Both the position numbers and the translations under genes were made by a program. A stretch of 64,000 bases of DNA from Mobula birostris (taxonomy: Eukaryota): assembly GCF_030028105.1 (NCBI RefSeq), contig NC_092378.1:127523731-127587730 (forward strand). Direction: 5' to 3'. Below the pieces are notes generated by a model. That model saw only the letters and a list, made by a program, of their open reading frames with translations, had not been told where the DNA came from and searched no databases. Shown piece by piece: positions 490 through 61,462 of the stretch; the first letter of the stretch is position 1, and each line of letters begins with the position of its first letter.

Positions 490-3400
490 GTAAGCTCCTT
501 TCTAATATTGATGCTTCAAGAAAATAGTTCTTATCAAGATGCATGAGGCAGCATATGTAGTAATCACTGAGATATAGTTTACCAGTGTTGGCACGTGGCC
601 AAGTGGTTAAGGCGTTCATCTAGTGATCTGAAGATCGCTAGTTCGAGCCTTGGCTGAGGCAGCATGTTGTGTCCTTGAGCAAGGCACTTAACCACACATT
701 GCTCTGCGACGGCACCCATGCCAAGCTGTATGGGTCCTAATGCCCTTCCCCTGGACAACATCGGTGGCGTGGAGAGGGGAGACTTGCAGCATGGGCAACT
801 GCCGGTCTTCCATACAAACTTGCCCAGGCCTGCGCTCTGGAAACCGTCCAAGGCGTAAATCCATGGTCTCATGAGACTAACGGATGCCTATATTTCACCA
901 ATTGCATGAAGAAAAAGGGGTATTTTTTCTATTTAATATCTTTATGAAAATATTTCCTTGTCTTTCCTATATTTAATCATGCTATCATTCATCTTAACAT
1001 TCCCCACCTCTGGCTATCTCTGCCACTCTCCTGGCATGCAGAATTCCCATATTGAAAGTGAATGGACAATGCATTTCTGTATTATTTAAGGCAACAGTCT
1101 GGAGTTCACATCAGCTAGACTCTGACCTGCTCTCCCCCATTCTCAGTATTCACTGTGTGTAGACTTAAGGAGTTTAGGCTCAGCTAAGCTGGAATTAGCA
1201 GCACAATGTTAAGGCACATTTCCACCCACCCCTGCCCCCTTCTTCCACACAACACTATTGGGAATAGAGGCAGAATAGCAGCATGAGTCTCTATACATTT
1301 GGTCTTGCCTATTCCTAGAAACCAGGAATACAGGAGAGATCCAGTACATCTGGCAGGAAAATTTCTGGCACAGGGGACTGCACAAAGAGAATGGGAATTA
1401 AAAGGAAAAGCAATAAAACATAATTAGTGTGTTACATAAACTGAATGAGGGATGCATGTATCTGAAAAATCTTGCTGCAAGTATAGTAACCTTTGTTCTT
1501 ACATTGAGCAAAGTACCACATATTAATAATAACAGTGAATTACTTTACCTTAATTATATATTGAACTCAAAAATTGAGAGGTATACATCAGGAAAATCAA
1601 AATATTAACCCTGGAAAACAGAACACAAATGGAAGTAATTGCAATTGTGAATAAAAACATTGCTCAGAATGAATAAATCTGTCAACTTGCAGATTTTTAG
1701 ACAACAGTATTTTCTTTGGAGTATCAGTTAAATTACTCTATCATAAACAAGAGATTCTGCAGATGCAGGGGAACACAAACAAAGTTCTGGAGGAATTTAT
1801 CAGGTCAGGCAGCATCTATGGAGAGGAATAAGCAGTTGACATTTCAGGCCAAGACCCTTCATCAGGACTGGAAAGGAAAGGGGAAGAAGACAGAATAAGA
1901 AGGGTGGGGGGGGGGAAGGGAAGTACAAGCTGGAAGACGAGAGGTGAAGCCAGGTGAGGGGGATGTTGGGTGGGTGGTGGAGGAGGGGATGAAGTAGGAA
2001 GCTGGGAGGTGATAGGTGGAAGAGGTTAAGGGATGAATAAGAAGGAACCTGACAGGAGAGTACCTTGAATCATAAGAGAAGGTGGAAGGGCACCACAGGG
2101 AGGTCATTGGCGGGTGAGGGGAAGGGAAGGGGTAAGAGCGGAGCTAAAATGAGGAATGGAAAGAAAAGAGAAGAGATAAAAGAGAACATGGAAGGGTGCT
2201 CTTCAGTTTTACATGTCCCAGTCTAACCACACCTTCCAATATTTGGTCTGCGGGCCCACAGTTCTCCAACTATGCATTCAAATAACGTTTAAATGTAATG
2301 AAGGTTTCAGTAAGATCCAGACTCAATAAACATGTGCCCTTTAATCCTTCCAGTAACCACTTTGAATCTATGTGCTCTGGTTTTTACTGTCTTGCTAAGA
2401 TAAATATTTGCTTCCTACTTACTCTGTCTGAGTCCATCACAATTTTATGCAACTCATTTATGTCCCCTCTATTCCAAACAAAACTTTTCAGCTTTTTCTG
2501 TGCTGTGTAGTCTTCCCTTTCCTGGAATATGATATGCAATATTCAAATCATATACATTAAAACCGGGGAATAAACTGTTTTATACAGTTCCAGTATGTCT
2601 TCTCTGGTCTTGCATTCTAAGCCTCAACTAACAGAGGTTAAGTAACTGCACGCCTTTTTAACAACCTTATGGATCTACACTGTTTTTAATGATCTGTCTA
2701 GACACTTACAGTCTGTCTGCACCCCCACTCAGTATCTGTCCATTTCTTCCATTTAGATAGATAGGTAGGTATACTTTATTGATCCCGAGGGAAACTGGGT
2801 TTCGTTACAGCTGCACCAATCAAGAATAGAGCATAAATATAGCAATACAAAAACCACAAACAATCAAACAACAATATGCAAACTATACCAGATAGAAATA
2901 AGTCCTGGACCAGCCTATTGGCTCAGGGTGTCTGACCCTCCAAGGGAGGAGCTGCAAAGTTCGATGGCCACAGGCAGGAACAACCTCCTGTGACGCCCAG
3001 TGTTGTATCTAGGTGGAATATGGCTGGAGTTGAACTGCACATGCATGTAACAAGAGCTGTATAACTCATCGCCTTCCACCTTGGGCCACGGACTTATCAA
3101 TCACTCCTGCTGTGGAGCACCTGGAGGTCCAAGATGGTCTCGTTACATGCACGTGCAGTTCAACTCTTTGAGTGATAATGCAGAAAGTTTGAAATTAATA
3201 ACTCATCTCCTTCTACCTCAGGCCACAAACTTATCAATCACCCTTTCTGTGGACCACTTCAACAAAGAAAGGATCCGTACGCTCCACGACCGCCGGACTA
3301 AGTGTGTACATGTAGGAGGGGACTATGTTGAAAGTATCCACTGCCCCTCAAATGTGGAATAAGAAATTAGCTGCTGGAAGAAGAAGTTGTGACACCCTGT

Positions 3401-6400
3401 ACCTGTAACTTTCTCCTTAATAAACTTAGGTGCACTCATGCAATTTTGTATTCATTTCTATCTGAACTCCATCTCATCAACATGTGCTGATGCCTCAGTT
3501 GCCAAGGCTGTAATCTCTATAATTCCCTCACTAGAACCCTCTTCCTTCACTCTCTTTATCCTTTAAGATTCTCCTCAAAATCTACATCTATGCTAATTGA
3601 TTTTACCTTTCTGTCCTGGGTTTTAGTGTCAGATTATATTTGGTGGCACCCTCTAGTGCGATGTGATTATTTAGCTACTATATAAATGCAAGTTTTTGCA
3701 AATCTGATTTGTTTGCCTTCTGTGAAATTTGAAATTGATCCTAACATTAGCTAATAAACGTTCAGGAATGCTATAGATGGTTCCCTATTGGTGATTGAAG
3801 TTCAAGGTAAATTTATTATCAAAGTACATATATGTCACCATATACAACCCTGAGATACATTTTCTTGCAAGTATACTCAATAAGTCCATAATAGAATAAT
3901 AAGCATAACAGAATTAATAAAGGACTGTACCAATTTAGACATTCAACCAGTGAGCAAAAGACAACAAACCCTGGAAATACAGAAAAGAAAGAAATAATAA
4001 TAAATAAATAAGCAATAAATATCGAGAACATCTTGTGCGTGTACACATTTTGTATTTGTCATGGAAAGTATGATTCTAAATTACATTTGCTAAATTGTTC
4101 ACTTATTTGTATGTTTTAAAAATAGCTTTGTGCCTTATTGTTCAAGCGATGTATGGAGTGGTACTGCACCAAAATCCGGCCAAGGTAAATCTCTATGTCC
4201 ATCTGCTACACATTGTAAAGGAAGACAAATACAAATAATGTGCGTTAACTTGAGTATTTTCCTTCCAGATGACTATGCATTTATGGGTGCCTTGATTCTC
4301 AGGGAAGTGATTAAAGACTTGGTCCCCAAGGGTATTAAGTTGGCAAAGATAGTCATGCTTGCTGGAACAAGGCAAGTAGAATAAATTTATTTTTTTATAA
4401 ACCATTTTTAAAAATGTGAATTAAAGGAGATTAATTCATCTTCCTTCCTGCAGGTGGTGTTGTTTATTTAGCTTCAGCCAAATCAGAATCAGGTTTACCA
4501 CTGGCATACGTTGTGAAATTTGTTGTTTTGCGGCAGCAGTACCGAAGATGTACTATAAATTATAATAAGAATTAAGTTGAAAATAAATATGCAGTGCAAG
4601 AAGAGATCAAAAAATAGTGAGACAGCGTTCAGAGTTCATTGTCCATTCAGAAATCTGATGGTGGGGGAAGGAAGAAGCTGTCCTAAAGCAATGAGTGTGT
4701 GTCTTCAGGCTCCTGAACCTCCTGCCTGATGGTAGTAATGAGAAGGGGGCATGCCCTGTGTGGTGAGGGTCCTCAATGATGGACACCACCTTTTTAGAGG
4801 CAGTTCCTTTTGAAGATGTCCTCAGTTGTGGGAAAGCTAGTGTCCACTGCAGCTTTTACCAACCCTGTATTCCAGATGGTGGTGCCAACAGCTAGAATGC
4901 TCTCAGGAAATTTTTTAACAAATTGATTTTCACCACTGCTCTTGAATTACATGAAGTGGAAGGTTCAATTAATGTGTTAAAGAGCTTTATTTATATATTT
5001 TAATTTTATTTATACTGGTTGCCAGTCCTGGGTTCTCAGTGTCCCAACCATCTGCTCAACCTCGACTGGCAAGAGGCTAAGTTTGTTCATGTGGTTTACA
5101 GGGTTCATTTTGCTTTTGTAATTCTCACTGGGGGCGTACTCCAGCTGATACGTTGTTTCATAAAGTGAGGAGAAAGGGAAGTATTATTGGAAGGAGACAT
5201 CATCCCACAGTCTGCAGATACTCTGCTGTGGCCAACACAGTGGAGCATGCTGGGGCCAACAGCAGCTCTCTAAGACAGATCTTGCCTTTTAATGCAATCA
5301 AAAACCAGGAGAGTTTCAAATTTGATATCTAAATCTAGCACTTTTTAGTTTATTGATCAAATCTTTTAATTTCATTAAAGTTAGACATACAGTATAAGTT
5401 TACTTTAATTTTCCTTTTTAGTTCTGATATAATCTTTAACATTGTTCTAAGATCATCGACTCAAAACCTATGGGTAGGAAATGAGTGTGTTTCTTTGTGG
5501 CTAGGAGACTTGTAATCCCAGCGAGATGGAAAATCTGCCAAAAATATTTCACTTGCATTTTTTTCACTCTGTGTCCCAGTCATTAGTCAGCCAGATGGGA
5601 GACCAGCCATTTGCTGGGTTGAAAGACTGCACTACAAGGTAGCAGCTAGGAACAGCTGTGAATAGTTCACAGCATCGAAGAAGGAACTATATTGAGATGG
5701 TAGGGAGTGATAGGCATATAGTGGGTGGGGAGGGGTGGTTGATTGATTATGGCCGTGAGACACAAGAGAGCAGGATTGGTTGATTACAAAAGTAGAAAGT
5801 TCTTGGGCAGTATGTGAATGTACCCAGCAGAACGTTTAACTGAAGCATTGAGAAGGAACACTGTGGAGGGGTCTAACCCAAGGGATTTAATAGGTCCTAG
5901 CTCACTGTACTTACTGAGTTTTTGATCCAGGGAAGAACAGACCTGCTGAAACAAACATCCCAAACACATCGTGGTCAAATCTTTAGTAGACACACACACT
6001 TATGGTGACCTCAGTGTAGAATTTTAACATATTTAGCAACTTAAATCCACCTGACTGTTTATTCCTACTGTGGGAAATTGAAAAGGTCTATTGGTGCTCT
6101 TATTATGAACCTAAAAATGCTTTGAAAGATCTTTGTAAGAAGATTCCAATTTTAATCTCTGTGATAATCAGTGATGGCCCCATTAGTAAGCATAATCAAT
6201 TTGGAATCTTTTCGTTGTGGTGCACTAAATATAAAAAAGCAGTGTTTCATTATAATGGCCAAGTGATGTAAAGCAATATATATATGTGTATGTTAAGTGA
6301 TTATACTGCAACAATTTTCTAATATTTACAATACTCTGCTATATTTCTCTTTCTGAGCCATTTAGAGAAAAGCCAACTCTCCTGAGAAACCTCTGTCAAT

Positions 6401-9400: not shown

Positions 9401-12400
9401 AATTATGGTTGGTTGTGATGAGGGAAGTATTATTTTAATGAGGTTAAAATTTGTTAAATTGAAGTTTAAATAAAAAGCATAGCATACCATGTTGCATCAA
9501 TCTGAAGTATCAAATTCTTAAGCAAATTTACAAAGAACTAATAAGAGATTTCTTTGCAGATTGTGGAATAGTGTTATTCCTGAAAGATGCAGACAACAAT
9601 TCAGACGAGAAGAATGGCAGTGTTTCTTTGGCCACAGGATATATTCATCCTTAAGATGTAAATAGAACTTTGAACAGAATATATTTATGAATTCCCCAAT
9701 GGTTAAAGGTGCCACTATAACTTGTGGAGTTTCTTTTCAGCCCCCGTGTTTGTGGTACAATGGCTATTTGACGAGGAACAGCTAAAAATGGAGAACATTC
9801 AATTGGGTAGCCAGTCGCTTACAGAAAATCAATGGAACTACATCCAGAATTTGGGGAGAGACCTCAGAAATTCTCTGCGAAATGTATCGTAAGTGAATTA
9901 TGATTCCAGAATGCTGCCTCAGAAATCACAATGGTATAAATGGTACAGATAACGTCTTAATCTCTTTCACCTAATTAAGTCAAGTTTCTTTTCATGAGCT
10001 ACTATTTAAACTTCTACTCTCCTCTACAGTACAATATTTACGTCCTAAATGGGAATTGTGCTCAGTGGAGAGCTTTAAGGCCTTCTTGATAGGGACTAGA
10101 AGTGTATAGAGGCTGGACGTCAATTCCCTGGCCCCGATCACTTCATTTTCACCATGGATGTCCAGTCCTTATACACTGCTATCCCCCATCATGAAGGCCT
10201 TAAAGCTCCAATTTTTTTCTCAACAGCAGACTCGACTAGTTCCCCTCAATCACCACCCTTCTCCATCTAGCAAAACTGGTCCTCACCTTCAACAATTTCT
10301 CTTTCAGCACCTCCCTCTTTCTCCAAACTCAAGGTGTAGCTATGAGCACCCACATGGGCCACAGCAATGCCTGCCTTTTCATTGGCTACGTGGAACAGTC
10401 CATGTTCTAAGCCTTCCCTGGTAATGCTCCCCAACTCCTTCTGTGCTATATTGATGATTGCATTGGTGCTGTTTCATGCACCCATGCTGAGCTTGTCAAT
10501 TTCATCAACTTTCCCTCCAACTTCAACACTGCCCTTAAATTTACTTGGTTCACTTCTGACACCTCTTCCCCTTTCTCAATCTCCCTATCTCCCTCTTTGG
10601 AAATAAATTGTCTACCGATATATTTTATAAACTTATTGATTCCCATGGCTATCTTGACTGTACCATCCCTATCCCATCCTGTCTCCTGTAAAAATGCTAT
10701 TCCCTTTTCTCAGTTCCTTCATCTATGCTTTATCTGTTCCCAGGATGAGGCTTTCCTTTCCAGGAATCAGAGGTGTCCCCCTTCTTCAAAGAATGGTGTT
10801 TCCCTTCCTCCATCAATGATGTTGCTCTCACCCGCATCTCGTCCATTTCCCAGACATCTACACTCACACCATCTTCCCAACCCCTTACCAGGATAGAGTT
10901 CCTTTTGTCCTCGCCTACCACCCCATGAGCCTCTGCACCAAATACATCATTCTCCTTAACATCTGCTATGTTCAACAGCACCATAACACTAAACACATCA
11001 TTATCCCCCTCCCCACTCCCATTCTCTGCTTTCCGTAGGAATCGCTCTCTCCGTGATGTCCTTGTCCATTCGTCCCTCCCCACTAATCTCCCTCTCGGCC
11101 CTTATCCCTGCAAGCAGCAGCAGTGCTATACCTGCTCATTCATCTCCTCCCTCATTTCCATTCAGGGACAACACTTCACCTGCAAAACTTCTGGAATCAT
11201 CTACTTGGTGCTCCAGATGCAGCCTCCAACCCATAGCTGAGACCCAAAGCAGATTGGGAGATCGCTTTGTCGAGCATCTCCACTCCATCTGCAAGAAGCA
11301 AAATTTCCTGGTGGCCAACCATTTTAATTCCTACGTCCATTCCCATCCTGATATGTCATTCCATAGCCAAGATGAGCGACTCTCAGGTTGGAAAAGCAAC
11401 TCCTCATATTCAGTCTAGGTAGCTTCCAACCTGATGAGATGAACATCGATTTCTGTAACTTTTTGTACTTTCTCCCTTTCTCCCTTACATTTCTTCCATT
11501 CCCCATTCTGGCTTCCCTCTTATCTTTTCTCTTTTCCTCACCTGCCAGTCACCTCCTCCAGTGTCCTCCTCCTTCGCTTTCTCCCAATATCCACTCTCCT
11601 CTCCAATAGGATTCCTTCTTCTCCAGCCTTTTGCCTTTTCCACCTATCACCTCCCAATTTCTTACTTCACCCCTCCTCCATCACCCACCTGGCTTTATCT
11701 GTCACCTTCCAGCTTGTCCTCCTTCCCCTCCACCAACCCTCTTATTCTGGCATCTTTCCCCTTCTCTTCCATGCCTGATGAAGGCTCTCAGCCTGAAATA
11801 TCAACTGTTTATTCATTTTCATAGATGCTGCCTGACCTGCTGAATTCCTTTAGCATTTTGTGTGTGTTGCTCTGTATTTCCAGCATCTGCAGAATCTCTT
11901 GTGCTTAGACAACCTTATGATTTTAACAGCATTGGACTAACTGTTGAGCATTGATAGAAACAGCTTTATAGAAGTTCCTTGTGCAGTATTCCTTCATTTT
12001 GGAACATTAATATTGCTAAATTTAACTTGAAGCAATGGCCTTAATTTTTTTGATAGTCTATTATTCAGAAGGATGGAATTCAGTTCTATGCAGACATGAA
12101 CTCAATGATCCCTAGAATATGTAAAAACATTTATATAGCACCACATGCTGGGTGACTGATGGTTCAATCAGCGCACTGAAAACCTAAACAGGCATGAATG
12201 CAGATGACACGTTGTGACAATTCTTGTGGTGAGAATATCCAGGTACCACTAAAGGCATTTCTCTGGAAATGTGCAACCAAAATCCTCTTTGAGAAAGTAT
12301 TGTGGAAATAAGTAATAGGTATTCAAATCTCTAAAAAGTAAAATCTAAAGTATTGGAGTAAAAGCTAGAAAATGATTCAACTGCTTGAAATAATGGCAAC

Positions 12401-15400: not shown

Positions 15401-18400
15401 GCTGATTTATTATCCCTCTCCATCTATCATTCCCATTCTCCTACCTTCTCCCTATAACCTTTGAGGCCCTTGCTAATCAAGAACTATCAACCTCCACTTC
15501 AAGTATACCAAATGACTTGTTCTCCACAGCCGACTGTGTCAGTGAATTCCGTAATGAATTCACCGCTCTCTGGCTAAAGAAAATTCAAGATTGTGGGGAA
15601 CAGTGCAGCCTTTAGGGGGTTAATAGGGTTGTAGAATGAGACCGAAGGGTGGTCACAGATCACAGATCAAATAGAGCCTAGTTCTTGCATACTTTATATG
15701 TTGTCTTGACAGATTTTTATATCAACACATTAGGCATTCTTTAATACATAAAATGTATTTTGCGTAGAGAGTTGAATCTTCCAACATTTTGGAAATGATG
15801 ATGATGGAACAGGAGCAAAAATGAAATAAGAATAGATCACAAAAGTTTTAAAGGTTTGTTTGTAATTGGGATGAGAGGAGTAAAGGAACAAGTACTTAAG
15901 TACAAGTTGCAGAGCTCACAATTTGTGACCAGTGAAGAAGTTAACAGTTAGATGTGAAGTGGGACTGAAGGATCAGTGATTCTGTACAGGATTGGAAGGC
16001 TGGAGAACAATACCAATGCAAAACAAGGGAAGGACAATGATATTTTAACCACAGGGATCTCAATGACCAGGAATAAAGTGATGATGGTTACAGGTTGATC
16101 CTTGCACTATTCTAATCACAGACATACTTTATGTTGGATCCTGATGCTTTTGTGATCCCGAGATTTTTTGGAAGCCCAGAACGAGGTATAAAGCTTATTG
16201 CTAGCAATTTTATTGAGTGCTGTGTGAACAAAGAGAAAACAAAGGAAAAAGTAGTCATGGTTGTCTCATACTCAGACTAGATAGCATGAAAAATTTCAGT
16301 GATAGCAATTAGCCCATTAAATAGCCAGATTCAAGTGATATGACACCTGCTACTGAAAACCAAGAAGTTTCTGGACAAATACAGAAGTAACCTTATTCCT
16401 TTGTGGCCTTTCCTTGCTTTGCTTTGGTATTGTTCTCCAGCATTCTAATCCTGCACAGAATCTCTGGCAATCCTGCACAGAATCCTTCAATCCTAGTTCA
16501 CACCCAATAGCTAACTCCTTCATTGGTCACAAACTGTACTCATAATACTGGAAAATTCACTGAACAATTACATGTATATAAGTGATTGTATAAAATTCCA
16601 AGCAAGCACAGGAAAGTTAACCTACAATAAAAGTGCCAATTTTACACCCAAATCCAACACATAGTATCACAGAATAGTGGAAATGTGCAGCAGGGAAACA
16701 GACCCATTGTCCTACTGACTCTGTGGTGACATTCAACTTACTTGTTTACACTAATCCTACATTAATCTCATTTATTCTTCTCATCAACTCCTCCCAAAGT
16801 CTACAACTCACCTACACACTAGGGGAAATGAGCAACATACAATGGGCAATTAATCTAGGAGGAAACTGGAGTACCAGTTCTATCCATTAGTACAGGAGAA
16901 TGTACACCACAGATACAGCACCCACAGTCAAAATTGAACCTGGGTGTCCAGCATTGAGATGTAGTGGTCTTACTACTGCCCCTCTATTTTAGTTTCAAAT
17001 TAATTGCCCTCAAGCAAAATTACTCCCAAAGAAGCTTGACAAGAATGGGACTTGTGGAGATGAGGGACCTTGTATCGAAGAAATTGCAGTTTATGGTATT
17101 CAGGACAAGGTACAGTTTATGTAGGGTTCAGATGACAACAGAAGGCTCACTTTGGGAATCATAAGATGAATTAGTGAAAATAACAGCTTGGGCCACAACG
17201 GGAGATGATAGGAATACAGCCATATTTTGCAATACAGAAAAGGCAATCTGACATGGAAAAGGATAACCCTTTGAGTTTAAGCAGGTCAGAAGAATTAGTG
17301 GAGTCCTTAGTTGTTTAAAGTTCCACTTGAATAAAAAAATTCACCTAATTAATTATTTGTGTTTCTCCACGAAAGACCAAAAACTAACACTAAGAACATC
17401 TGGTTCATTTTACATTCTGTTTTAAATATATTTGAACAAGGACTTCTATTAAATAATGTTGATTTTAGCCAAACTTGAGGTTAATATTCAGCAAACATTT
17501 AGCCCTTTGTTTTTTTATTGTTTAATTAACTTCTTAAGGCATACATAGGTACAAATATCAAACAGTCATTTAATACTGTTTCTTCTCTTACTTGATGTCA
17601 TAAAAATTTGGAATTTAGCTGTCAGTAATTTTACAGTAATTCGTGATCTGCACAATTGGTATTAGACTTCAGAACCTTGTCATGCAGTAGGTGTTACCTA
17701 AAATGATTGATTTCAACTTTACGCACTAATTATTGCCAAGGGTGATGACAAGGCCACTGGCTCTTTTTTAACCCAATTTAACAGTGTTAGGCTTGTAGAT
17801 TTAGAAACAAGTAACATTCATTTGAGTTTATTCTTAGTCTAACTCTGCCCAGCATGCTCAGGCCTCTCCTTGGCTAGTTGGGCCTTCTTGGCCAAGGAAA
17901 GGCTGGCATATTCTTGATGTTTACATTATTGGACAGCAGTGAAATGAAAATCACTGGTGAAGTCTGCTTGCTCATTAAGGCCTTCTGCAAAATCTGACAA
18001 ATATGATGCAAAATAATTTCAGAGGTGCATGAATGCCGAAGATGTGGAACAACCTGGGAGCCTGATTTATGCAAATACAGTGTGCTGTATGATGGAAGTG
18101 TGATGTTGTGAAGGCAGATTTCAGAAAACTCACAAAAAGTTGTGCATTTCTCCAGGCCACTTAATTGGCTTCATCCAAATCATAGTTAAGGTTAAATAAA
18201 ATGTTTACTCGCTACATCCATCCCAACATCTAGTCTCCTGATATAAAAATAAGGAAGTGGAAAGCTCCACACACAAAATAATGGAGGTCAGGTAGCATCT
18301 ATGGAAATGAATAAACAGTCGATGTTTGGGGCTGAGATCCTTCTTCAGGACTGGAAAGTGAAAAGCCCAAATGATCATCAATTCAAGCATCCATAAAAAG

Positions 18401-21400
18401 AGATGTCAGTTGGCTTGAAGAAAGTAAGTTACCACCAAATTTAATCCCAAGTAGTAACTGCACCTTGCTGGTTCTGATTTCTAATCAACCAATCTGCTGC
18501 TCATATCAAAGATACCAGCCCTTTACCTTTCCCACCCAGTTGGCTTCACCTATCACGTTCCAGCTAGCCTACTCCCCTCCCCACCACCATTTTATTCTGG
18601 CGTCTCCGCCCTTCCTTCTCAATCCCAAAGAAGGGTCTCAGCCCAAAACGCTGACTGTATTTCTCATTTCCATTAATGCTGCCTGACCTACTGAGTTCCT
18701 CCAGCATTTTGTGTGTGTTGGGTTGAATAAGAAAACATTGTAGCTTGTCTATAAAAATGATCATGTCGTCCTTTAATTTGCATTGCATTGGAAGTCATAA
18801 ATATCAGTAGTTTCACAGTGAATAAGGCATTGCACAAAAATGGTACATTCCTTTAACAGTCTCATTCCCAATTGGTTTACAGATCACACACTGCTGACGT
18901 TAACTGGAAACCTATTGATATCCTTGTTTTAACATTTATTATCAAGTGCAGATCAATGCCTGGTCAAGTGGCAGCACTTCCTGACCTTTTTTTTGTTGTA
19001 GGTTAGCAATTGGGCCTCCTTGACCCAGTAGCATCTGAGAAATCATTGATTTTTATCTCTCCTGACAGGTGTAAAATGGACATCACCACTTACTCATTAA
19101 AACCTGCTTTTTCATATGACAGGCCTGTGAGCCACAATCCTGCTGGACGGGTGCCAGGAATTACCATAGATCCACTTCAACCGTGATGCTGATAAAGTTT
19201 GCACTAGAGAGCACTTCATCAGCAAGTAGAGATTCACAGGTATAGGTAACATAAAGGTGCTCACTACCTTTATGTAGCTAAAAAGACAGCCAAGCACTTG
19301 ACATACAGTGGGAAGGGAGATGATAGTGGCGAAAGGTCAGGGGTTGAACCTTGTCCTCTTTAGCTCCTGCTCAAAACCACAAGAACTTGATTTATATGGT
19401 GATATTAATGTACAAAAAGGTACATATTGAAGGAGAGAACTGTACACTGGATGATCTAAAGAGGTGAGTCCTCAGAATGCTGGGATTTCGAGCACATTCC
19501 AGAACTGAAGCTACCTGACTCTCAAAGGCCAGGCTGCTTTTGCAGGTAATGCATGCTCCAAGCCATCACTGACTTGTCCACTGAAGCAGGAGCATGGTCT
19601 TCACACTCAATATCCACTTGACAAACTACTCATTATGTACGTGGCAATGCAGAGAGTGGTACGGACAGCCCACCGCATCTGTGGACGTGAACTTCCCTCC
19701 ATTGAGGTCATTTGCAGCAGCAGGTATATAAAGAAGGTCTGGAAGATCATCAGGGGCACCACTCACCCCAGCCATAAACCACTTCAGCTGCTCCCATCTG
19801 GCAAACAGCACCCCAGCATAAAAAACAGGTCAAATGCGCTATGGGACAGCTTTTTTCTACAAGCCATTAGACTTGTAAATTCACATATCTGTACACTGTG
19901 ACAGAGTCATAGCTCAAAGATTTTTACTCCCTCACATTGTGGGGTGGATGTAAGATTTAAATAAATTCAATACTTCAATCTAGGTGTCCATGATGCACTG
20001 CGCACCCTCCAGTAATAAAGTTTCATGGCAAGCACTGGAAACGTGGATTTATGTCTTGGGAATCATTGCTTGGTAAGGTCAAACATCAGTAATGAAATTC
20101 ATCACTGCCTTCAAGATTTTAGTCGATTGAGGAAACGGCTATTTGAAGATCAAGACCAGGACTGGCACGAAACTCACACACAGAAGCAATTCATATCTTC
20201 CTGTAACCTTCCAAGATATGGACCATCTAAAGCAGGCACTAGAAAGATACCACCAAGTTGATATTCAAAAAAAAAATCCTCCAAAATTACTGGAAGGGTA
20301 AGTTGGAAGTATCCTCTCCCAGGGCAACATCATCAACTCTGAGACACAGGTGAGCATGCTGGACAGATTAGACTGACTCCAGATTCCCAAAACAGGCACA
20401 CATTCTCATGCTCTGTCATGGGAAGAGATTACCAGCTGAATAGGGAAAAAGGATGTGCTCAACCCATTTTCAAAGAATTGCATCATTTCCACTGAGTCCG
20501 AGGCATCTCTGACCCATGACTGCTCAAGGCGGAGAATGACGATTCCGGATAGCAATTGTTAGATGCACACAGAATACCGATTTTTTAAAGAAAGTAGGAC
20601 GACTGCACAACCTCATGGTACGTTTCTACAGCATCACTCCCTCCCGCACACCCCTTTGTACCATTTCTGGTTTTCACACTGATTCATCAACAACCTCAGG
20701 ACGCACAACAACAAAGTACAAGCAAGCTATTCTTGTTCTCTTGGAACTACCCAGGAAGATGAATAGGTGGGTGAAGGTGGAGACATATTTGGGAGATGAA
20801 TTCTAGAACCTGAGCAAATTTAACAGACAATTTAGCCAATGGTTTTCTCTCTCTTAATATGCATCACAGACAGCTTTGGCTGCTCGATCAAAGGTTCAGT
20901 CAACTGAGAAGAGAGTGGTGGACACTGAGAGAGTCAAAGGAAGCGGGGACGGGGTCGACTGCAGATTTCAGTGGCATTCTGGACTCAGGGCCTCAAGCTG
21001 CGAGATTACCTGTTTACAGCCGCCGGGAGAGAGAGGAGTCGGAGCTGGTGCACTCCGTTGGGGGCTGTGTGGCGTGGGTTCCTGGCAGGAGTCAGCACTG
21101 CCGTTCCGCCAGTGTTCATTCGGCAGAAGGCAAGCTATACTTTGGTCAACTGCAGAATTTCTGCGGCATTCATGGACTCAAGGTCTGGAGTTTTTTTTAC
21201 GTGGATGTATTGTACTGTTATCTTAGATGTGCTTTCTATCTTGTATTTGTGTTATGTGTGCTTTGTGCTGTGTGTCTCTGTTGGTACTGTGTTTTGCACC
21301 TTGTAAGATACAGAAGGCACTGGCGTGGAGGGCAATAAACGACATGAAGGAAATCTGGATGTCGAAACTGACAAGAGGGCTTAAAAAGAGGATTTTCATA

Positions 21401-38586: not shown

Positions 38587-39187
38587 CAACCTCCGGGCTG
38601 CAGACTGATACTGGGCCGCGAAGCATGTAGGGATGCAGCGGTAGCCGGGACGTACCCAGAACATCTTTAAGAAAAAAGCCGAAATAAACAAGTTAATTAA
38701 TTGGGTGTCGCCCGGCACGTAAATGTCGACCCAGATCAGAGGCGATTGGCGATTTCACTTGCTCTACACGATGTTCACTCCTCTTTCCAGGGTGCTGGAG
38801 CCTTTAGCTGTTACATTGTTTGGTCAATTTAAACACCAGTCCAGTCAGGCTGAAAAGACAGGGCTGTCAGGATCAAGGTGATATGTTAAATCTACACAAA
38901 CTGCTAATAAAGTAGAGGCGCTGCCGTGCTTTCTTTGTAATGACAGTTACGTGCTGGTCCCAGGACAGATCCTCTGACACTTTTCAGAGAGAGAAACGTC
39001 GATCCTTAATGCTGAAGAATTTAACGTTACTGACCCTCTCCACCTCAGTTCCTCTAATGAAGACTGGCTTCTGGGCAGCACCTAATTAACTAGCTTGTTT
39101 ATTTCGGCTTTTTTTCTTAAAGACGTGCTGGGTGCACTCCGGCTACCGCTGCACCCCTGCATGCTTCGCGGCCCGGAGGTTGGGGAC
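38587..39187. mobile_element. hAT/Charlie-type MITE with long (about 110-125 bp) inverted arms and an internal Rex1-like fragment
   Basis: 38587-38713 is largely the reverse complement of 39072-39183; the end GGTTGGGGAC resembles the TIR of the 44966-46188 hAT; the interior minus strand reads DLSWDQHVTVITKKARQRLYF. Confidence 0.7.
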
Positions 39188-39199
39188 AAGGACAGGGGA

Positions 39200-39790: not shown

Positions 39791-39944
39791 AACTCCATGA
39801 GTTCTGACCCCCCATCACCACCACCTTAGCGAGCTGAGACTTCTGCTGGGCCACGTTTCTTGTTCTTAACCAACATTCAAGTTCAGAGCTGCACTGCACC
39901 AGCACACCCTCGGCTCCTGTGCCAAGTACGTCATCTCCTATCAG

Positions 39945-40226
39945 CACACGTAAAATTCTGGAGGAACTCAGCAGGCCAGGCATCTCTTTTAAAGAGACAA
40001 CAGTCGACGTTTTGGGCCGAGACCCTTCTTCGGGACTGGAAATGCTTTTATTTGCCTCCAGCATTTTCTGTCTGTTGCTTGGGTTTCCAGCATCTGCAGA
40101 TTTTCTCTGCTGGAAGCAACAACTGTTTAATTCTTTTCCATAGACGCTGCCTGGCCTGCTGAGTTCCTCCGCAGTTTGTGGGTATTGCTTGGATTTCCAG
40201 CATCTGCAGATTTTCTCACGTTTGAC
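39945..40226. mobile_element. inverted/tandem cluster of Penelope-like terminal repeats
   Basis: Minus end with hammerhead stems at 40001-40038, followed by two plus-orientation TTTCCAGCATCTGCAGATTTTCTC ends. Confidence 0.75.
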
Positions 40227-46188: not shown

Positions 46189-46999
46189 CCCTAAAGTATA
46201 CAGGAAGCAAAATCTTTGTTGTCCAGTGTTGTTGACAGTGGCAGCAACAACAGTGTCGGCAGTAAATTGAAAATAGAATGATAAATTTCTAATATTTATT
46301 TGCAGCATGCAGCATACTTTCCCATGATCAAGGATTCAATACCTACCCTATGATCTATGTAAAACATCGAAAGGACCTGAAATGTACTTCCCTTACCAGA
46401 AATCCAATCTCTTGTATATCTTGGAGCACTGAATTTCCCGTTATATACTGCACCTCTGGCCTCCCATCCCATCGTCCCTGTGTGTCGACGAGGGCTAGAG
46501 GAGCTGGGATTAATGGCTGTGGGCTAGGTCTCCTAGAAGACAAATTAGCATTTCGGTGTCGAAGATCAGGTGTCCCACGATCGGTGTTCTGTGATTCAGA
46601 GCCTCAGCATTTCAGTGTCGGGGCGGGTCTATGCTGGACTGCTGAGTTATTCTGGAGGTGAGTGCTGGCTGCTGCAGGTGTACTGCTGGAACCTAAGAAG
46701 ATGCAACTGGGGAATTGAACAAAGTTGGCTGAGCACAAAATACTGACACACAGGACAGAATACTTCCATTGAGCTCAGGCAATCATGTCTAAAACAGTAC
46801 ATTTCATTTGCTATTTAGTAGTTTGAAAGATCCGAATACAGGACTTTTAAGTGTTGTTTCTTAACTCGACTGCTTATTAAAAAGCCAACCACATTTTACA
46901 TTATTTTTACAATCATTTATGTTTGCTAGCAAAATTACAATGTTTGATTTAATTTCATTTTCATCACTAAACTAATAAGCCAGAAAATGGCTGATTGTT

Positions 47000-47132
47000 C
47001 CGATGCAAGGTTTCGGCCTGAAATGTCGACTGTTTATTCCCCTCCGTGGATGCTGCCTAACCTGCTAATTTACTTCAGTATTTTGTGTGTGTTGCGCCTG
47101 AATTCCAGCATCTGCTGAATCCCTTGTGTTTA
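47000..47132 (+). mobile_element. Penelope-like terminal repeat
   Basis: ...GGCCTGAAATGTCGACTG...GATGCTGCC...TTCCAGCATCTGC. Confidence 0.7.
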
Positions 47133-48640: not shown

Positions 48641-49840
48641 CACACTAGAGATTCTGCAGATGATGGAAATCCAGAGTAACACACACAAAATGCTGGAGAT
48701 ACTCCACAGGTCAGTCAGCATCAATGGAAGAGAATAAAGAGTCGACATCTTGGGCTAAGACCCTTCCGGAAGGGTTCTTGAAGGGAGGGGAAGCAGTAGA
48801 ACCTAGAAGGTGATAGGTGGAGCTGGGCGGGTGGGGGAGGGAGGATGAAGTGAGAAACTGGGAGGTGTTAGGTAGAAAGGGTAAAGGGCTGAATAAGAAT
48901 GAGAGGGAAGGAGGAGGGACACCAGAGGAGATGATTAAGCAGGTGAGGAGAAGATGTAAGAGGGGAGCCGGAATGGAAGAAAAGAGGGCGGGGAGAAATT
49001 GCTGGAAGTTACAGAAATCAATATTCATCCCATCAGGTTGGAGGGCACCAGGATGGAATATGAGTGTGGCCTCAGCAAGTCAGTAGAGGAGGCTATGGAT
49101 TGACATGTCTCAGTGGGGCTGAGGATTGGAATTAAAATGGTTGACCACTGGGAAACCCTACTTGTGGTGGATGGAGAGAGGTGCTTGACAAAGCGGTTCC
49201 ACCCAATCTATAAAGGGTCTCACTGATGTAGAGGAGGTCGCACCAGGTGCACTGGATACAGTAGATGACCCCGACGGACTCACAGATGAAGTATTGCTTC
49301 TTTTGGAAGGACTATTTGGGGCCCTGACAGGGGAAGTGTAACACTTATTCTAGCTGCAGGTAGAAGTGCTAAGAAACAGATTCATGGGGAGAGATCAATA
49401 GAGAAGGGAATCACAGAGAGAGCAATTCCCGCAGAAAGCAAAGGGTGGGAGAGGAGGTAAAGATATGTCTGAGGGTAGTATCCCATTGAAGATGGCAAAG
49501 TTGTGGAGAGTGATGTCCTGGATGCCAAGGCTCATCAGGCGGTAGGTTAGGACAAGAGAGGCTCATCAGGTGGTAGGTTAGGACAAGAGGAACTCCATCC
49601 CTGTTAAGGTGGCTAGAAGATGGGGGAGAATGTCAGGGAAATGAGGGAGATGCAGGTGAGGACAGCATCAATGCTGTAAAGGGAGATCCCATTAATTGAA
49701 GAAGGAGGAACGCCTCATCCTGGGAACAGCTGCAGCACAGACAGAGTCCTGATCATTGGTCTCAGTCTGAAATGGTGATTTTTAAAATTCTTTCCATAGA
49801 TGCTGCCTGACCTGCTGAGTTCCTCCAGCATTTTGTGAGG
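48641..49840 (-). mobile_element. Penelope-like element 3' about 1.1 kb, plus an inverted terminal repeat (about 49745-49840)
   Basis: Reverse-complement collinear with 10740-11908 ([12 protein letters not shown]); internal 31-bp tandem duplication near 49529-49590. Confidence 0.8.
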
Positions 49841-51794: not shown

Positions 51795-52200
51795 ACGGTA
51801 GCACAGTGGCGTAGCAATTAGCACAGCACTTTACAGTGCCAGTGATTAGGGCTCGTTCCCTGCTGCTGTGAGAGGTTTGTGCGTTCTCCCTGTGAAAGCA
51901 AGGGTTTCCTCCAGCTACTCTTTTTCTGAAAACATACATATTAGGGTTAGTAAGTTACCGGTGTGCTATGTTGGCACCAGAAGCTGCCAGCACGTCCTCA
52001 GACAGTGTTGGTTGTTGACACAAAGCCCTGACGAAGGGTCTCGGCCTGAAACGTTGACTGCACCTCTTCCTAGAGATGCTGCCTGGCCTGCTGCATCCAC
52101 CAGCAACTTTGATGTGGGTTGCTTGAATTTCCAGCATCTGCAGAATTCCTGTTGTTCACTGCATGTTTCAATGTTTCTTGGTACACATCGTTAAAGCTAA
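51795..52200 (+). mobile_element. V-SINE-like element interrupted by a Penelope-like end with an intact hammerhead core (52028-52060)
   Basis: tRNA-like head GTGGCGTAGCAATTAGC; insert CTGACGA-AGGGTCTCGGCCT-GAAAC-GTT-GACTG...TTTCCAGCATCTGCAGA. Confidence 0.7.
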
Positions 52201-52819: not shown

Positions 52820-53405
52820 ATATAGAAACATAGAAAGCATACAGCACAATACAGGCCCTTCGGCCCACAAAGCTGTGCTGAACATGTCCCTACCTTAGAA
52901 CTACCTAGGCTTTACCCATAGCCCTTTACTTTTCTAAGATCCATGTACCCATCCGGGAGTCTCTTAAAAGACCCTATCATTTCCGCCTCCACCACCGTCG
53001 CCGGCAGCCCATTCCACACACTCACCACTCTCTGCGTAAAAAAACTTACCCCTGACATCTCCTCTGTACTTACTTCCAAGCACCTTAAAACTATGTCCTC
53101 TCTTGCTAGCCATTTCAGCCCTGGGAAAAAGCCTCTGACTATCCACACGATCAATGTGTCTCATTATCTTGTACACCTCTATCAAGTCACCTCTCATCCT
53201 CCGTCACTCCAAGGAGAAAAGGCCGAGTTCACTCAACCTATTCTCATAAGGCATGCTCCCCAATCCAGACAACATCCTTGTAAATCTCCTCTGCACCCTT
53301 TCTATGGTTTCCACGTCCTTCCTATAGTGAGGCGACCAGAATTGAGCACAGTGCTCCAAGTGGGGTCTGACCAGGGTCCTATATAGCTGCAACATTACCT
53401 CTCGG
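52820..53405 (-). mobile_element. CR1 LINE 3' end
   Basis: MLQLYRTLVRPHLEHCAQFWSPHYRKD...RGDLIEVYKIMR...FFTQRVVSVWNGLP; ATAGAAAC tail. Confidence 0.92.
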
Positions 53406-53594
53406 GTAATGTTTTAACAAATCTGCCAGATAATTCTGTGCTGGTTAACCTTTCGTGAGTATAGTGGACTATTGAAATAAACAGGAAGGAACCGCTGCTG
53501 TGATAATGGTGGATAGACCTATTTTGATCAAGAGACTGCAAAGATGCTGGAATTCAGAACAGCAAACAAGGTGCTGGAAAAACTCGACAGGTCA

Positions 53595-54299
53595 ATAGAC
53601 AATAGACAATAGACAATAGGTGAAGGAGTAGGCCATTCAGCCCTTCGAGCCAGCACTGCCATTCACTGTGATCATGGCTGATCATCCACTATCAGTATCC
53701 AGTTCCTGCCTTATCCCCATAACCTTTGATTCCACTATCTTTGAGAGCGCTATCCATCTCTTTTTTGAAAGCATCCAGAGACTTGGCCTCCACAGCCTTC
53801 TGGGGCAGAGCATTCCATACATCCAGCACTCTCTGGGTGAAAAAGTTTTTCTTCAACTCCGTTCTAAATGGCCTATCCCTAATTCTTAAACTGTGGCCTC
53901 TGGTTCTGGACTCACCCATCAGCGGGAACATGCTTCCTGCCTGCAGCGTGTCCAATCCCTTAATAATCTTATATGTTTCAATAAGATCCCCTCTCAGACT
54001 TCTAAATTCCAGAGTATACAAGCCCAGTCACTCCAATCTTTCGACATATGACAGTCCCGCCATCCCGGGAATTAACCTTATGAACCTTCGCTGCACTCCC
54101 TCAATAGCAAGAATGTCCTTCCTCAAAATTGAAGACCAAAACTGCACACAGTTCTCCAGGAGTGATCTCACCAGGGCCCTGTACAGCTGCAGAAGGACCT
54201 CTTTGCTCTTATACTCAATTCCCCTTGTTATGAAGGCCAGCATGCCATTAGCTTTCTTCACTGCCTGCTGTACTTGCACACTTGCTTTCAGTGACTGAT
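53595..54299 (-). mobile_element. CR1 LINE 3' end inserted into a Penelope-like terminal repeat (about 53530-54660)
   Basis: KKANGMLAFITRG...RGDLIETYKIIKG...FFTQRVLDVWNALP; (CAATAGA)n tail; GTCA at both junctions (53591-53594 and 54300-54303). Confidence 0.9.
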
Positions 54300-56574
54300 G
54301 TCAGGCAGCATCTGTGGAGAAAAATGACCATTTGACATACTGGTGAAGATTCTTCTTCCAGACTGAAGGATAAATGGAGGTAGCCCGAATCAAAGGTGAA
54401 GGGAAGGGGTGGAGCAAGAGCAAGCGGGTAATAGGTGGATCCAGATGAGGAGAAGTGATAGGCATATGGAGAAGGAAATGAAGCTGAATCTGAAAAATGT
54501 TTCAGGTCTTGAGATCCTTCATCAGAACATAGACTCTTTACTTTGACAATGGGTCTCAACTTGAAGCTTTAATTTTGTTTCTCTTTTTACAGATATTGCC
54601 TGACCTGCTGAGTGCTTCCAACACTTGCTGTTTTTATTTCAGATTTCCTGCTCTTACATGTTCTTTCTAATGTCCCCATAATAATGAAATGTTTATTTTG
54701 GAATTGTATTCATAAATCTCAAATAAATATGCATTGGAATTCACCAATGAACATATTTATAAAGTTAATTGTGAAAATTAACGAGGTCTGCTTAGAAGAG
54801 AAGCTATAAAAACTGAGATAAGTAATCAGACGAGGAGGAAATAAAGATTGTGCAGAGGAAAATGGTGATAGGTATGAGGAAGCAATCAGCCAACAAAAAG
54901 CTATTGAAAAATTATTGAGGATAACCACAAAGTAAAACAAAAAAATAAACATTTGAAAAATATAATCCTCATAGCAGGGAATATTAATCAAATGATACAG
55001 CTGCAGATTAAATACATTTGAATCTTCACAAGTATAACATTTCTTATTTTAATCATTGTGGTCATTGTGCCTCATCTGTGAAAGTTGTGCTGCATTTCAT
55101 TCGACATCTCATTGTTGTTTTAAAGGAGTATGCTAAACAGGAAAGATTTATTGTAACCATATGCCACAATTGTTTTTTTTAATGCTGAATATTCTCCCAG
55201 TTCAACTTCATCAGTTAAGTGCAGTATATTTTACCAGCCCCGTTAGCATGCATGTGTGTTTGCTGCCTAATATCAAATTAAACAATGCAGTGGCTCCATA
55301 ACTCCTAAACAGAAACCTTTGCCTTGCAAATTGCTGCTAGAAAGTGCCTTGATAGATTATAAATTAGTTTTATTTCTATTAACATGCATGAATGGTGCAT
55401 TTCTTTCACAGAGAGAGCTGCATTTTTCTGCATTTAGTTTCCAAAAACCAATGGGCCAGATTGTGTTTAGATTTATCTGGTGCTCTGTAAAGAATCACAA
55501 GCTATATTGCCCCTGACTTCACTCACAGTGCAAAAAATGCACTATTTGGAAACAAATTGGAAGTCAGATGCCAGCGCAGCTGCAGTAAAGTGAGAAACCA
55601 GATGTGAAGTGCTTTAGGTAAGTAATTAGCATTTAGTGAAGCATTTACATAAATAATCACGCTTCACTTATTTTACTTAATTCTAGTTAATGTCCAGAAC
55701 TTGAAGTTGTTCTCATTCTTTTTTTTTAGCTTTTAATACTTTTTCCTTTCTAAACTATTTTTGTCTATACGAATGGTTTATATGAAAGGATGCTCTGACT
55801 GTCAGTGGTCTTTAAAAGCAGTTCAATGACCTATGACAAGCAATATGGTGGGTGGGGCGAAGGGAATGAAGAAGATACCTCCTGAATCCTTGTTTTCTCT
55901 CACAGCCTTCTCCACTTTGAGGGATGGTTCTCAGGCATGGAGGGTTACGCTTGGCCTGGTCCTCTCTGTCCATAAAAAGGAAGTAGGGGCAGGCAGGCAC
56001 CAAGGGCAGTGAATTCAGGCAGCAGGCCGCATCCAAGATGATCAGGCTATTGTAAGTACAACTTAACAATCTATAAAATCAGCCACTGTGACAAAAATTA
56101 CCAACTTTAGCTTGCCACTTAAACTAAAATGGATGATCCTTGAAAATTCAGACATCTGTTTCCTGTTGGTTGCCAAACCATAGACTGTGACAGTAACTGG
56201 GATTGTGAGATGGTGCCAGGACTTCAGTTCTTTTGAAATAGATATGTGGAGTCTCTGACCATTGATCTGTCAATGTCTAAGGGGTCAGTCTGGGGCCTTT
56301 AGTTAGAATTGCTGGCAGATAACACAAATTGTGATTTAATTAATTTGGAATGAGTATTCATTAATATTAAATGAAAACATATTTTCTTAGATGGCCCAAA
56401 ATGCTTGACAACAAATTTGTGACTCTCACTGGGATACGTTCTCTAACCTGCATGACCATGCCTTAGTAATGTAATGCAATAACTAATGATCTGGAATTAA
56501 ATTGCTGTGAATTAAATTGAAAGCACAGCAGCACCTCTAATTTCTTAGGAGTGTGTGGAGATTCAGCATTACAT

Positions 56575-58607: not shown

Positions 58608-58888
58608 TTGTGGCGCATGGCCAAGTGCTTAGAGCGTTGGACTAGCAATCTGAAGGTCGTGGGTTTGAGCCTCGGCCGTGGCAGCATGTGTGTCCTTGAG
58701 CAAGGCACTTAACCACACAGTGCTCCAGTCTACCCAGCTGAGAATGGGGGGTTAACCTCACGATAGACTGGCGTCCTATCCGGGGGCGGGGGGGGGGTGA
58801 GTCTCGTATCCTCAGTCGCTTCATGCCACGGAAACCGGCATGAGCTCTGGCCTGATGGGCCACAAGGCTCGTGACAGACCTTAGTAGT
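58608..58888 (+). mobile_element. tRNA-derived SINE (shared head/core, tail type 3)
   Basis: TGGCCAAGTG A box, GGTTTGAGCC B box and shared core; distinct body and tail GCTTCATGCCACGGAAACCGG...GGCCTGATGGGCCAC...GCTCG. Confidence 0.8.
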
Positions 58889-59461: not shown

Positions 59462-59705
59462 TGTTTTGTTTCATAACTTCAGAACATAAAACTAGTTGAA
59501 AGAAAAACATGGGAATAATGTGTGTTCTCTAGTTTTGTTTTTACTTTAGTGAGGCGCACACATATAACGTGGTGACGTAATGATATATGCCATTCACATA
59601 CTTGTATATATAACCTGTAATGTATTATGCAAACAACAAAGAAGACTTAATCAAATGATACATTTATAATATTACTCAAATATTACTGAAATATTAAGTA
59701 ATGCA
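59462..59705 (-). repeat. Gypsy 3' LTR
   Basis: TG...CA ends; shares AACATAAAACTA, TGACGTAATGA and ACAACAAAGAA.CTTAATCAAA with 63609-63836. Confidence 0.8.
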
Positions 59706-61269: not shown

Positions 61270-61462
61270 GATACACACAAAATGCCGAACCCTTCATTAG
61301 GACTGCCTTATCTATTCATCAGCAGTCCCGATGATGGGTTTTGGGTTGAAACGTCAACTGTTTACTCTTTTCCATAGATGCTGCCTGGCCTGCTGAGTTC
61401 CTCCAGCATTTTGTATGTATTACTTTCATTTCCAGCATCTGCAGATTTTCCCTTGTTTGTGA
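61270..61462. mobile_element. Penelope-like terminal repeat with an inverted partial copy, inserted in Gypsy pol
   Basis: ACCCTTCATTAGGACTGC...GCAGTCCCGATGATGGGT inverted pair, then GAAACGTCAACTG...TTTCCAGCATCTGCAGA. Confidence 0.75.

What the first reader, a model, noticed from the sequence alone, without database searches (positions are those of the whole stretch)
1833..61360. Dispersed minimal hammerhead ribozyme motif in about 11 Penelope-like ends
Seen: copies at 1833-1870(-), 11770-11807(+), 18316-18353(-), about 18620-18657(+), 40001-40038(-), about 47000-47032(+), about 48740-48770(-), about 49745-49780(+), 52023-52060(+), about 54497-54528(-) and 61323-61360(+). Together they give the consensus CAGTC-CTGATGA-A-GGGT(CTCG)GCCC-GAAAC-GTC-GACTG: stem I CAGUC/GACUG, core CUGAUGA and GAAA, a short stem II, cleavage triplet GUC, and a loopless palindromic stem III (ACGU). 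Established: Penelope-like elements carry minimal type I hammerheads that fold as dimers. Inference: at about one copy per 6 kb, this genome may hold a very large population of self-cleaving motifs. Every copy here has at least one lesion, mostly CpG decay, so no single copy is predicted to be fully active.
Basis: partly seen in the sequence, partly recalled or inferred. Interest (0 to 1): 0.7.

Follow-up and report, generated by a model that had tools for sequence, protein, structure and literature searches.

The report
Penelope ends carrying minimal hammerheads
The repeats are real: they are cut-short ends of a very abundant Penelope-like jumping gene that carry an already described minimal hammerhead RNA motif, predicted to cut RNA only in pairs, and about a quarter of young copies begin at the motif's front edge rather than at its predicted cut, which likely means uncut RNA is what gets copied into the genome.

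Summary
Observation confirmed: all 11 motifs lie at the stated places and form about nine insertions; none passes a strict hammerhead descriptor. They are 5'-truncated pLTR ends of a Neptune/Nematis-type Penelope-like element. Full-length copies elsewhere in the genome (1,089-aa RT + GIY-YIG ORF) carry one motif in each pLTR. This is the minimal hammerhead of Cervera and De la Pena 2014 (PMC4209133). Estimated load is about 413,000 copies (one per 9.7 kb), with 33,423 exact intact cores. Two corrections and one addition: (1) U at 11.1 is the dominant master allele (26,617 vs 6,806), not CpG decay; (2) many neighbouring motifs are inverted pairs, which cannot dimerise in cis; (3) 34 of 129 young copies begin at the 5' arm of stem I versus 5 at the cut, so inserted copies likely come from uncut RNA. 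A weak excess of joints at the cut exists but is partly explained by microhomology. Cleavage is untested. The scan noted this family before: 76 findings in at least 22 genomes, including in this genome.

The parts
1746..2166 (-). 5'-truncated PLE end (older subfamily): 3' UTR/pLTR, motif 1833-1870 (G10.1-U11.1, 15.2 and stem I lesions), 3' tail
10069..10124 (-). short inverted arm at the 5' end of the long copy
10124..11902 (+). longest PLE remnant: broken RT (YIDD), thumb, Cys linker and GIY-YIG at 10121-11462, then pLTR with motif 11770-11807 and tail
   Evidence: tblastn E 2e-75 and 7e-57 with the natural full-length ORF
18285..18356 (-). inverted arm with motif 18316-18353 (GAAA broken)
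18515..18728 (+). partner arm with motif 18620-18657 (core broken)
39942..40041 (-). inverted arm with motif 40001-40038 (C at position 4, G12 lost)
46997..47132 (+). solo stub of about 135 bp starting at the motif (5' core degenerate), with tail
48643..49709 (-). PLE end with GIY-YIG remnant (49002-49728) and degenerate motif 48740-48770
49745..49837 (+). inverted partner starting at the 5' arm of stem I; degenerate motif 49745-49780
52023..52156 (+). the only young-subfamily copy in the window (94% to a full-length element); starts at the 5' arm of stem I; motif 52023-52060 with U11.1, GUU triplet, one stem I lesion; predicted cut 52055/52056
54495..54528 (-). degenerate motif arm of an inverted pair
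   Evidence: (11.7 bits), sequence
61323..61459 (+). stub starting at stem I; motif 61323-61360 (core and stem II lesions), tail

Best explanation
The motifs are decayed copies of the minimal hammerhead carried in the pseudo-LTR of an abundant Neptune/Nematis-type Penelope-like retrotransposon, left as 5'-truncated ends that were likely reverse-transcribed from uncut RNA. Shown: full-length elements are pLTR-ORF-pLTR with one motif per pLTR, 3.5-3.7 kb apart on one strand; the ORF starts 138 nt after the predicted cut; copies end at two sites, about +65 and +100 nt past the cut (the PLE 'tail'); they run through the cut site; and 5' ends pile up at the 5' arm of stem I. Inferred: the element's RT starts internally at +65 or +100, as shown in vitro for an anole PLE (PMC11167929), and copies towards the RNA 5' end. 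The pile-up most likely marks an RNA 5' end, a transcription start at stem I (about 0.5), or else a stop by fold-back at the hairpin base (about 0.35), or other causes (0.15). In the parent element the ribozyme would cut slowly, only as a dimer through the ACGU palindrome or with help from the element's protein, trimming or retiring transcripts rather than making the template. The dispersed copies are predicted to be nearly all silent.
For: Full-length structure, unit 3,496-3,735 nt, pLTR pairs 93-97% identical. ORF 1,089 aa with RVT_1 (E 2.8e-5, below Pfam's cut-off) and GIY-YIG (E 1e-3, below cut-off; a fragment passes at 23.7 bits), DKG, YIDD and a CX4CXXC linker. The motif is 34/38 identical between the young and old subfamily majorities, against 45/104 upstream and 6/16 just downstream (Fisher p 4e-7 vs upstream). 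N7, the free core position, is what varies between subfamilies. 5' ends of 129 unique young copies: 34 at -35..-26, 5 at -5..+4, 3 at -45..-36 (p 6e-9 and 3e-6). Seven TSD-flanked copies start at -33..-29. Genome-wide, 2,035 exact copies have a foreign base before position -32, and 29 of 30 inspected are true ends. 3' ends: 57 of 129 at +58..72 and 60 at +92..108. The monomer folds into a rod pairing GACG with CGUC.
Against: No cleavage, transcript end or promoter was measured; the RNA look-up returned only contigs. In the older subfamily the pile-up is weaker: 13 of 72 at stem I vs 8 at the cut (p 0.09) and 6 at -45..-36 (p 0.31). Joints exactly at the cut are about three times as common as at +3 (718 x 12/30 vs 357 x 8/30 after re-reading three rows by eye; 11/30 as scored by script), so some templates may have been cut. 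The region +19 onward is also conserved between subfamilies (66/84), so constraint is not unique to the motif. No two-sided compensatory change was found in stems I or II within this genome. The young sample comes mostly from the first 5.5 Mb of one chromosome and was picked by an exact match at +19..+51; the unselected sample held only 10 young copies (2 at -35..-26, 0 at the cut).
Confidence: 0.8

Rival explanations
1. The ribozyme does cut in vivo and defines the template: cut (perhaps circularised) RNA is reverse-transcribed, as proposed in PMC4209133. A circle re-ligated at the cut would let RT read through it.
For: The motif is conserved across subfamilies whose flanks diverged. There is a roughly threefold excess of joints at the cut over +3. 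8 of 72 old copies end at -5..+4. Read-through of the cut is compatible with a ligated circle.
Against: Only 5 of 129 young copies start at the cut. Of 12 joints at the cut, five can be read as microhomology with the inverted arm (L282, L287, L294, L296, L306). A circle offers no end at -32. Hammerhead mutants do not affect insertion in vitro for the anole PLE (PMC11167929).
Confidence: 0.12
2. The pile-up at stem I is a copying artefact of the hairpin: the cDNA folds back on its own stem I, or RT falls off at the base of the rod. No transcription start is involved.
For: The monomer rod is stable (-12 to -15 kcal/mol). Two of 30 inspected joints (L287, L294) have exactly the fold-back form. 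Many inverted pairs end symmetrically near -30. The test for a cap-derived G was inconclusive.
Against: RT normally stalls on entering a hairpin, at its 3' side (general knowledge), and there is no peak at +5..+14 (1 of 129). TSD-flanked, non-inverted copies also start at -33..-29. An initiator-like YYANWYY lies at -34..-28 in both subfamilies (sequence; consensus recalled).
Confidence: 0.3
3. The short copies are an independent SINE-like or retrozyme family that amplifies itself from an internal promoter.
For: Many copies are 95-135 bp with their own TSDs. C11.1 is somewhat commoner in short than in long copies (16/45 vs 13/69, untested for significance).
Against: Short and long copies share the same 3' ends and alleles in a continuous 5'-truncation series up to full length. 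Spacing in the window is kilobases, with no tandem arrays. Retrozymes are tandem by definition (bioRxiv 10.64898/2026.07.22.740005).
Confidence: 0.07
4. The motif is no longer a ribozyme in the dominant lineage; it is kept as a protein-binding or promoter hairpin, and U11.1 marks relaxed catalysis.
For: 80% of exact cores have G10.1-U11.1, at a pair described as highly conserved G-C (PMC4209133). Naiad PLEs thrive without hammerheads (bioRxiv 10.1101/2021.04.23.441226).
Against: All other core positions, the UH triplet and the palindrome stay at master state in the U lineage. G-U keeps the pair: predicted pairing probability 0.96.
Confidence: 0.15

Closest known systems
Minimal hammerheads (min-HHR) in pLTRs of metazoan Penelope-like elements (Cervera and De la Pena 2014, PMC4209133; read: introduction, results, discussion)
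   Same: Type I topology without helix III, palindromic 15.2-16.2, one extra base between 9 and 10.1, location in both pLTRs, mostly dispersed single copies from truncated PLEs, some close pairs on opposite strands; reported in fish Xena, Poseidon and Neptune.
   Different: Stem II is only 3 bp (7-8 bp in Schistosoma). The dominant lineage has G10.1-U11.1. Copy number is far higher: 33,423 exact cores against about 4,000 in coelacanth and 9,000 in Xenopus, by different methods. The parts read name no cartilaginous fish; supplements were not seen.
PAc, Poseidon element of Anolis carolinensis (Frangieh et al. 2024, PMC11167929; read: main text)
   Same: Two internal RT start sites giving a 30-40 nt tail; hammerhead in the pLTR; unprocessed RNA as the main substrate; no RNA-seq reads ending at the cut.
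   Different: There the ORF starts inside stem II; here it starts 138 nt after the cut and both 3' ends lie in the 5' UTR. This element has the Cys linker that Poseidon lacks. The main text read reports no pile-up of 5' ends at stem I.
EN+ PLEs of the Neptune/Nematis type (Craig et al. 2021, bioRxiv 10.1101/2021.04.23.441226; read: passages)
   Same: [quoted passage not shown]
   Different: Neptune vs Nematis was not resolved (no reference set for a tree).
Non-LTR retrozymes (Li et al. 2026, bioRxiv 10.64898/2026.07.22.740005; read: first half and passages)
   Same: Type I hammerhead of pLTR origin; present in the one chondrichthyan they sampled.
   Different: Retrozymes are short tandem arrays; these copies are dispersed truncation products of an autonomous element.
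Drosophila virilis Penelope (Schostak et al. 2008, PMC2377424, passages; PMC4209133)
   Same: Promoter in the pLTR; a splice-acceptor-like pyrimidine tract and YAG abut the 5' arm of helix I here, where Penelope's intron ends.
   Different: Penelope starts transcription 46 nt before a 75-nt intron. No common upstream exon is seen on copies that start at stem I here.

Membership tests
min-HHR of metazoan PLEs | Core CUGANGA, GAAA and UH at master level | tested here: met
   33,423 exact genome matches, control 0; column counts in 75 young copies
min-HHR of metazoan PLEs | Stem I of 4-5 bp closing the motif; stem II present | tested here: met
   5-bp stem I and 3-bp stem II; pair probabilities 0.96-1.0 in two intact natural copies; 41 of 75 young copies intact
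min-HHR of metazoan PLEs | Extra nucleotide between 9 and 10.1 | tested here: met
   A in 75 of 75
min-HHR of metazoan PLEs | Palindromic 15.2-16.2, no helix III | tested here: met
   C in 72/75, G in 65/75; the exceptions are CpG transitions except one
min-HHR of metazoan PLEs | G10.1-C11.1 pair (described as highly conserved) | tested here: inconclusive
   G-C in 6,806 exact cores; G-U wobble in 26,617. Met by one lineage; kept only as a wobble in the dominant one
min-HHR of metazoan PLEs | Sits in both pLTRs around an RT-EN ORF | tested here: met
   L123, L124, L125, L134, L141
min-HHR of metazoan PLEs | Self-cleavage as a dimer | not testable with these tools
   needs in vitro transcription; cofold favours an extended duplex, not the double hammerhead
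EN+ PLE, Neptune/Nematis type | Single ORF with RT (DKG, YIDD) and C-terminal GIY-YIG | tested here: met
   (Pfam hits weak: RVT_1 24.4 bits against cut-off 29.6)
EN+ PLE, Neptune/Nematis type | CX2-5CXXC linker between RT and EN | tested here: met
   residues 956-964 of the L125 ORF; definition
EN+ PLE, Neptune/Nematis type | Partial tandem pLTR, inverted 5' copy, 30-40 nt tail | tested here: met
EN+ PLE, Neptune/Nematis type | Placement in the RT phylogeny | not tested
   no reference PLE proteins in hand
Non-LTR retrozyme | Tandem short repeats, each with a hammerhead | tested here: not met
   window copies are dispersed or inverted; tested in the window only
Rfam hammerhead families | Match to a covariance model | tested here: not met
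   none among 11 matches at E<=5; the window copies are decayed, and intact copies were not scanned

The most novel reading that the evidence does not exclude
The element starts its RNA at the first bases of the hammerhead, so the ribozyme is a 32-nt leader that decides the RNA's fate: uncut capped RNA is copied into the genome, and cutting decaps and retires it. The lineage with the most intact copies has fixed a G10.1-U11.1 wobble that would weaken cutting, so the element's largest burst went with a detuned ribozyme. The U and C lineages give a natural pair for testing what PLE hammerheads are for.
Probability: 0.25. Interest if true: 0.62.

Novelty: new member of a known kind. Interest (0 to 1): 0.33.

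Why it matters
The motif and its link to Penelope-like elements are in print, so the finding as written is ordinary. What remains useful: the role of PLE hammerheads is stated to be unclear. This genome offers tens of thousands of young copies whose ends record which RNA was copied, ORF-intact elements, and two natural alleles at the 10.1-11.1 pair. These make the question 'is cleavage needed, or is it a brake?' testable. The copy number, about 400,000 motifs, is far above the counts in the paper read, but most copies are predicted to be inert.

Tried and rejected
Rfam scan of the window: no hammerhead. PDB sequence search with the ORF: nothing meaningful. RNA evidence: no RNA holder listed; 22 runs, all contigs. 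Four were laid: they show no ends, and none of the 15 joints shown (of 24) is an intron ending at stem I. A fixed short 5' exon spliced to stem I was rejected because copies starting there share no upstream sequence. Cap-derived G: among the first 100 of 2,035 hits the base before -32 was G 32, C 47, A 21 (counted by hand; G vs A p 0.003 against base composition). The control at -31 was also G-rich and is confounded by transitions (G 38, T 39, C 23), and only L254 and L066 show a clear untemplated G, so this is inconclusive. An apparent pile-up of old copies at -32 against the young reference was an alignment artefact and was dropped (23 rows); it was redone with old references. The first descriptor script had a bug (greedy stem II) and was replaced. 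A search for other hammerhead families or compensatory stem changes in 1.56 Mb of held loci found only this family (97 hits, control 0). Lunse et al. 2017 (dimer cleavage) is not held; I saw only its citation and summary in PMC6765202. 'hammerhead ribozyme' + 'elasmobranch' gave 0 papers. Searches listed no title or abstract on 5' ends at stem I; full texts were not all read and supplements were not seen. The host looks like a cartilaginous fish from recalled repeat types and earlier notes; no call here names it.
Full report
Observation. An HMM from the seven ungapped copies recovers 11 hits at 12 bits or more in the window and none in the reversed window. Further partial arms lie at 61282-61305(-), 54544-54651(+) and 40058-40224(+). 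The motifs group into about nine insertions, six of them with an inverted arm. None passes a strict descriptor. Of 36 differences from an intact natural G-C copy, 20 are CpG-type. Rfam reports no hammerhead in the window.

What carries the motif. The copy at 11770 follows a broken RT and GIY-YIG frame at 10121-11462, and the copy at 48740 follows a GIY-YIG remnant. A protein search of the genome gave 77,304 first-look candidates, of which 150 were scored, many in long open frames. Of 20 long-ORF loci fetched, five have a direct pLTR-ORF-pLTR layout, with motifs 3,496-3,735 nt apart and repeats 93-97% identical. [quoted passage not shown] Pfam gives RVT_1 and GIY-YIG below their cut-offs; one fragment passes for GIY-YIG. 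The linker places it with Neptune/Nematis by the definition in Craig et al. (passages). Insertions show the PLE signature: an inverted 5'-truncated arm, a tail on one side, and TSDs of 8-15 nt in 25 of 129 copies.

Is it a hammerhead? At master level it has CUGANGA, an extra A, a 3-bp stem II, GAAA, CG, GUC and a 5-bp stem I. This matches the min-HHR of Cervera and De la Pena, including the extra base and the palindromic 15.2-16.2. Between the young (19 copies) and old (18 copies) subfamily majorities, the motif is 34/38 identical against 45/104 upstream (p 4e-7). The region from +19 on is also conserved, 66/84. N7 differs between subfamilies, as expected for the one free core base. No two-sided compensatory change was found. 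Intact monomers fold into a rod that pairs GACG with CGUC and hides the core. In an inverted pair one arm is the antisense of the other, so such pairs would form a long duplex and cannot supply a dimer in cis (inference).

Numbers. Exact 33-nt intact cores: 6,806 with C11.1 and 26,617 with U11.1; controls 0. A downstream 33-mer has 55,330 exact matches for the young subfamily and 8,065 for the old. In 35 unselected 10-kb stretches (35 of 40 asked for existed) there are 36 motifs, giving about 413,000 genome-wide (289,000-572,000), and 6 strictly intact ones, giving about 69,000 (25,000-150,000).

The U11.1 allele. A 4:1 excess of U in cores whose other CpGs are intact cannot be decay. 35 of 36 motifs around long-ORF loci carry U (that sample was found with a U-lineage query). 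In contigs of four coded runs the share of C at this base differs: about 21% in organisms A and B, 41% in C, 70% in D (summed contig depth, rough). The G-C pair is called highly conserved in PMC4209133. That G-U slows cutting is my inference; no paper read here measures it (search).

Which RNA was copied. I mapped ends of 129 unique young copies (153 hits, 151 unique, 22 old ones set aside), picked by sequence downstream of the cut. 3' ends fall at +58..72 (57) and +92..108 (60), matching the two internal RT start sites and tail of the anole PLE. 5' ends: 34 at -35..-26, 11 at -25..-16, 5 at -5..+4 and 3 at -45..-36. Seven TSD-flanked copies start at -33..-29. Genome-wide, 2,035 exact copies have a foreign base before -32, and 29 of 30 inspected are real ends; 2,193 have one before -31 (not inspected). 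At the cut the count is 718, with 12 of 30 real joints; at +3 it is 357, with 11 of 30 scored as joints, three of which I re-read as point changes. So starts at -32 are several times commoner than at the cut, and the cut is about three times above +3. Five of the 12 joints at the cut can be read as microhomology with the inverted arm. In 72 old copies the pattern is weaker: 13 at stem I against 8 at the cut, p 0.09.

Mechanism. Shown: location, architecture, two 3' ends, read-through of the cut, and the pile-up at stem I. Inferred: RT starts internally and copies uncut RNA. The pile-up is likely an RNA 5' end at an initiator-like site (about 0.5) or a fold-back stop (about 0.35). The ribozyme would cut slowly, as a dimer or with protein help (PMC4209133, PMC11167929), and in a minority of transcripts. 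A pyrimidine tract and YAG abut stem I, as at the end of the D. virilis intron, but copies starting there share no upstream exon. RNA data could not decide this.

Comparison and novelty. This is a new member of a known kind. I found no paper on elasmobranch hammerheads, and no listed title or abstract on the pile-up. Lunse et al. 2017 and all supplements were not seen and may bear on stem II and U11.1. After my own mapping I looked up earlier notes of this scan: 76 findings in at least 22 genomes and many in this genome describe the same family, the same pile-up and hints of joints at the cut. They are unchecked AI notes and not independent support; the joint-at-cut lead prompted. Verdict: real, largely known, with one testable mechanistic clue. 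Interest 0.33.

Noticed in passing
window 40919-42376 (+): Intact single-frame 485-aa ORF with Mab-21 domains; the Atlas names its nearest clusters ITPRIP-like 2 (score 0.97). The inverted PLE unit at 39942-40224 lies about 700 bp upstream of its ATG.
   Followed up: partly
old-subfamily copies, e.g. window 40001, 61323, 18620: Core positions 4-5 read CG or CA in 7 of 73 old copies against 1 of 108 young. This hints at a minor old lineage with C at position 4, a variant reported to lower activity in vitro (PMC3088659, passage).
   Followed up: partly
L211, L247:2875-2912 and 3714-3751: A third subfamily with a different loop II and 3' flank but the same core.
   Followed up: no
L287, L294: Inverted insertions whose joint has the exact form expected if the cDNA folded back on stem I.
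   Followed up: partly
L002 and L125, pLTR -55..-31 relative to the cut: Branch-point-like motif, pyrimidine tract and two AG sites directly before stem I: a possible 3' splice site (consensus recalled); no spliced form seen.
   Followed up: partly
window 590-708, 25076-25196, 58612-58729: Three copies of a tRNA-derived SINE-like repeat (weak tRNA hit at 25075-25138).
   Followed up: no
window 27753-28030, 34645-35734, 36915-37774, 52983-54303: LINE-like (CR1/L2 type by recall) 3' ends in several copies.
   Followed up: no
window 59522-59685 and 63667-63830; 61645-62974 (-): A 164-nt direct repeat 4.1 kb apart around broken gag/pol-like frames, probably a decayed LTR retroelement; the stub at 61282-61459 lies inside it. 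Observed only.
   Followed up: no
window 14411-14932: Minisatellite-like array of about 40-nt units.
   Followed up: no
window 38613-39174 and 15974-16466: Inverted repeats of 63-65 nt about 370-430 nt apart, MITE-like.
   Followed up: no
L123 vs L125 ORF, N-terminal third: A proline/serine-rich repeat of about 74 aa is present twice in L125; L123 is 74 aa shorter (1,015 vs 1,089 aa), probably by one unit.
   Followed up: no
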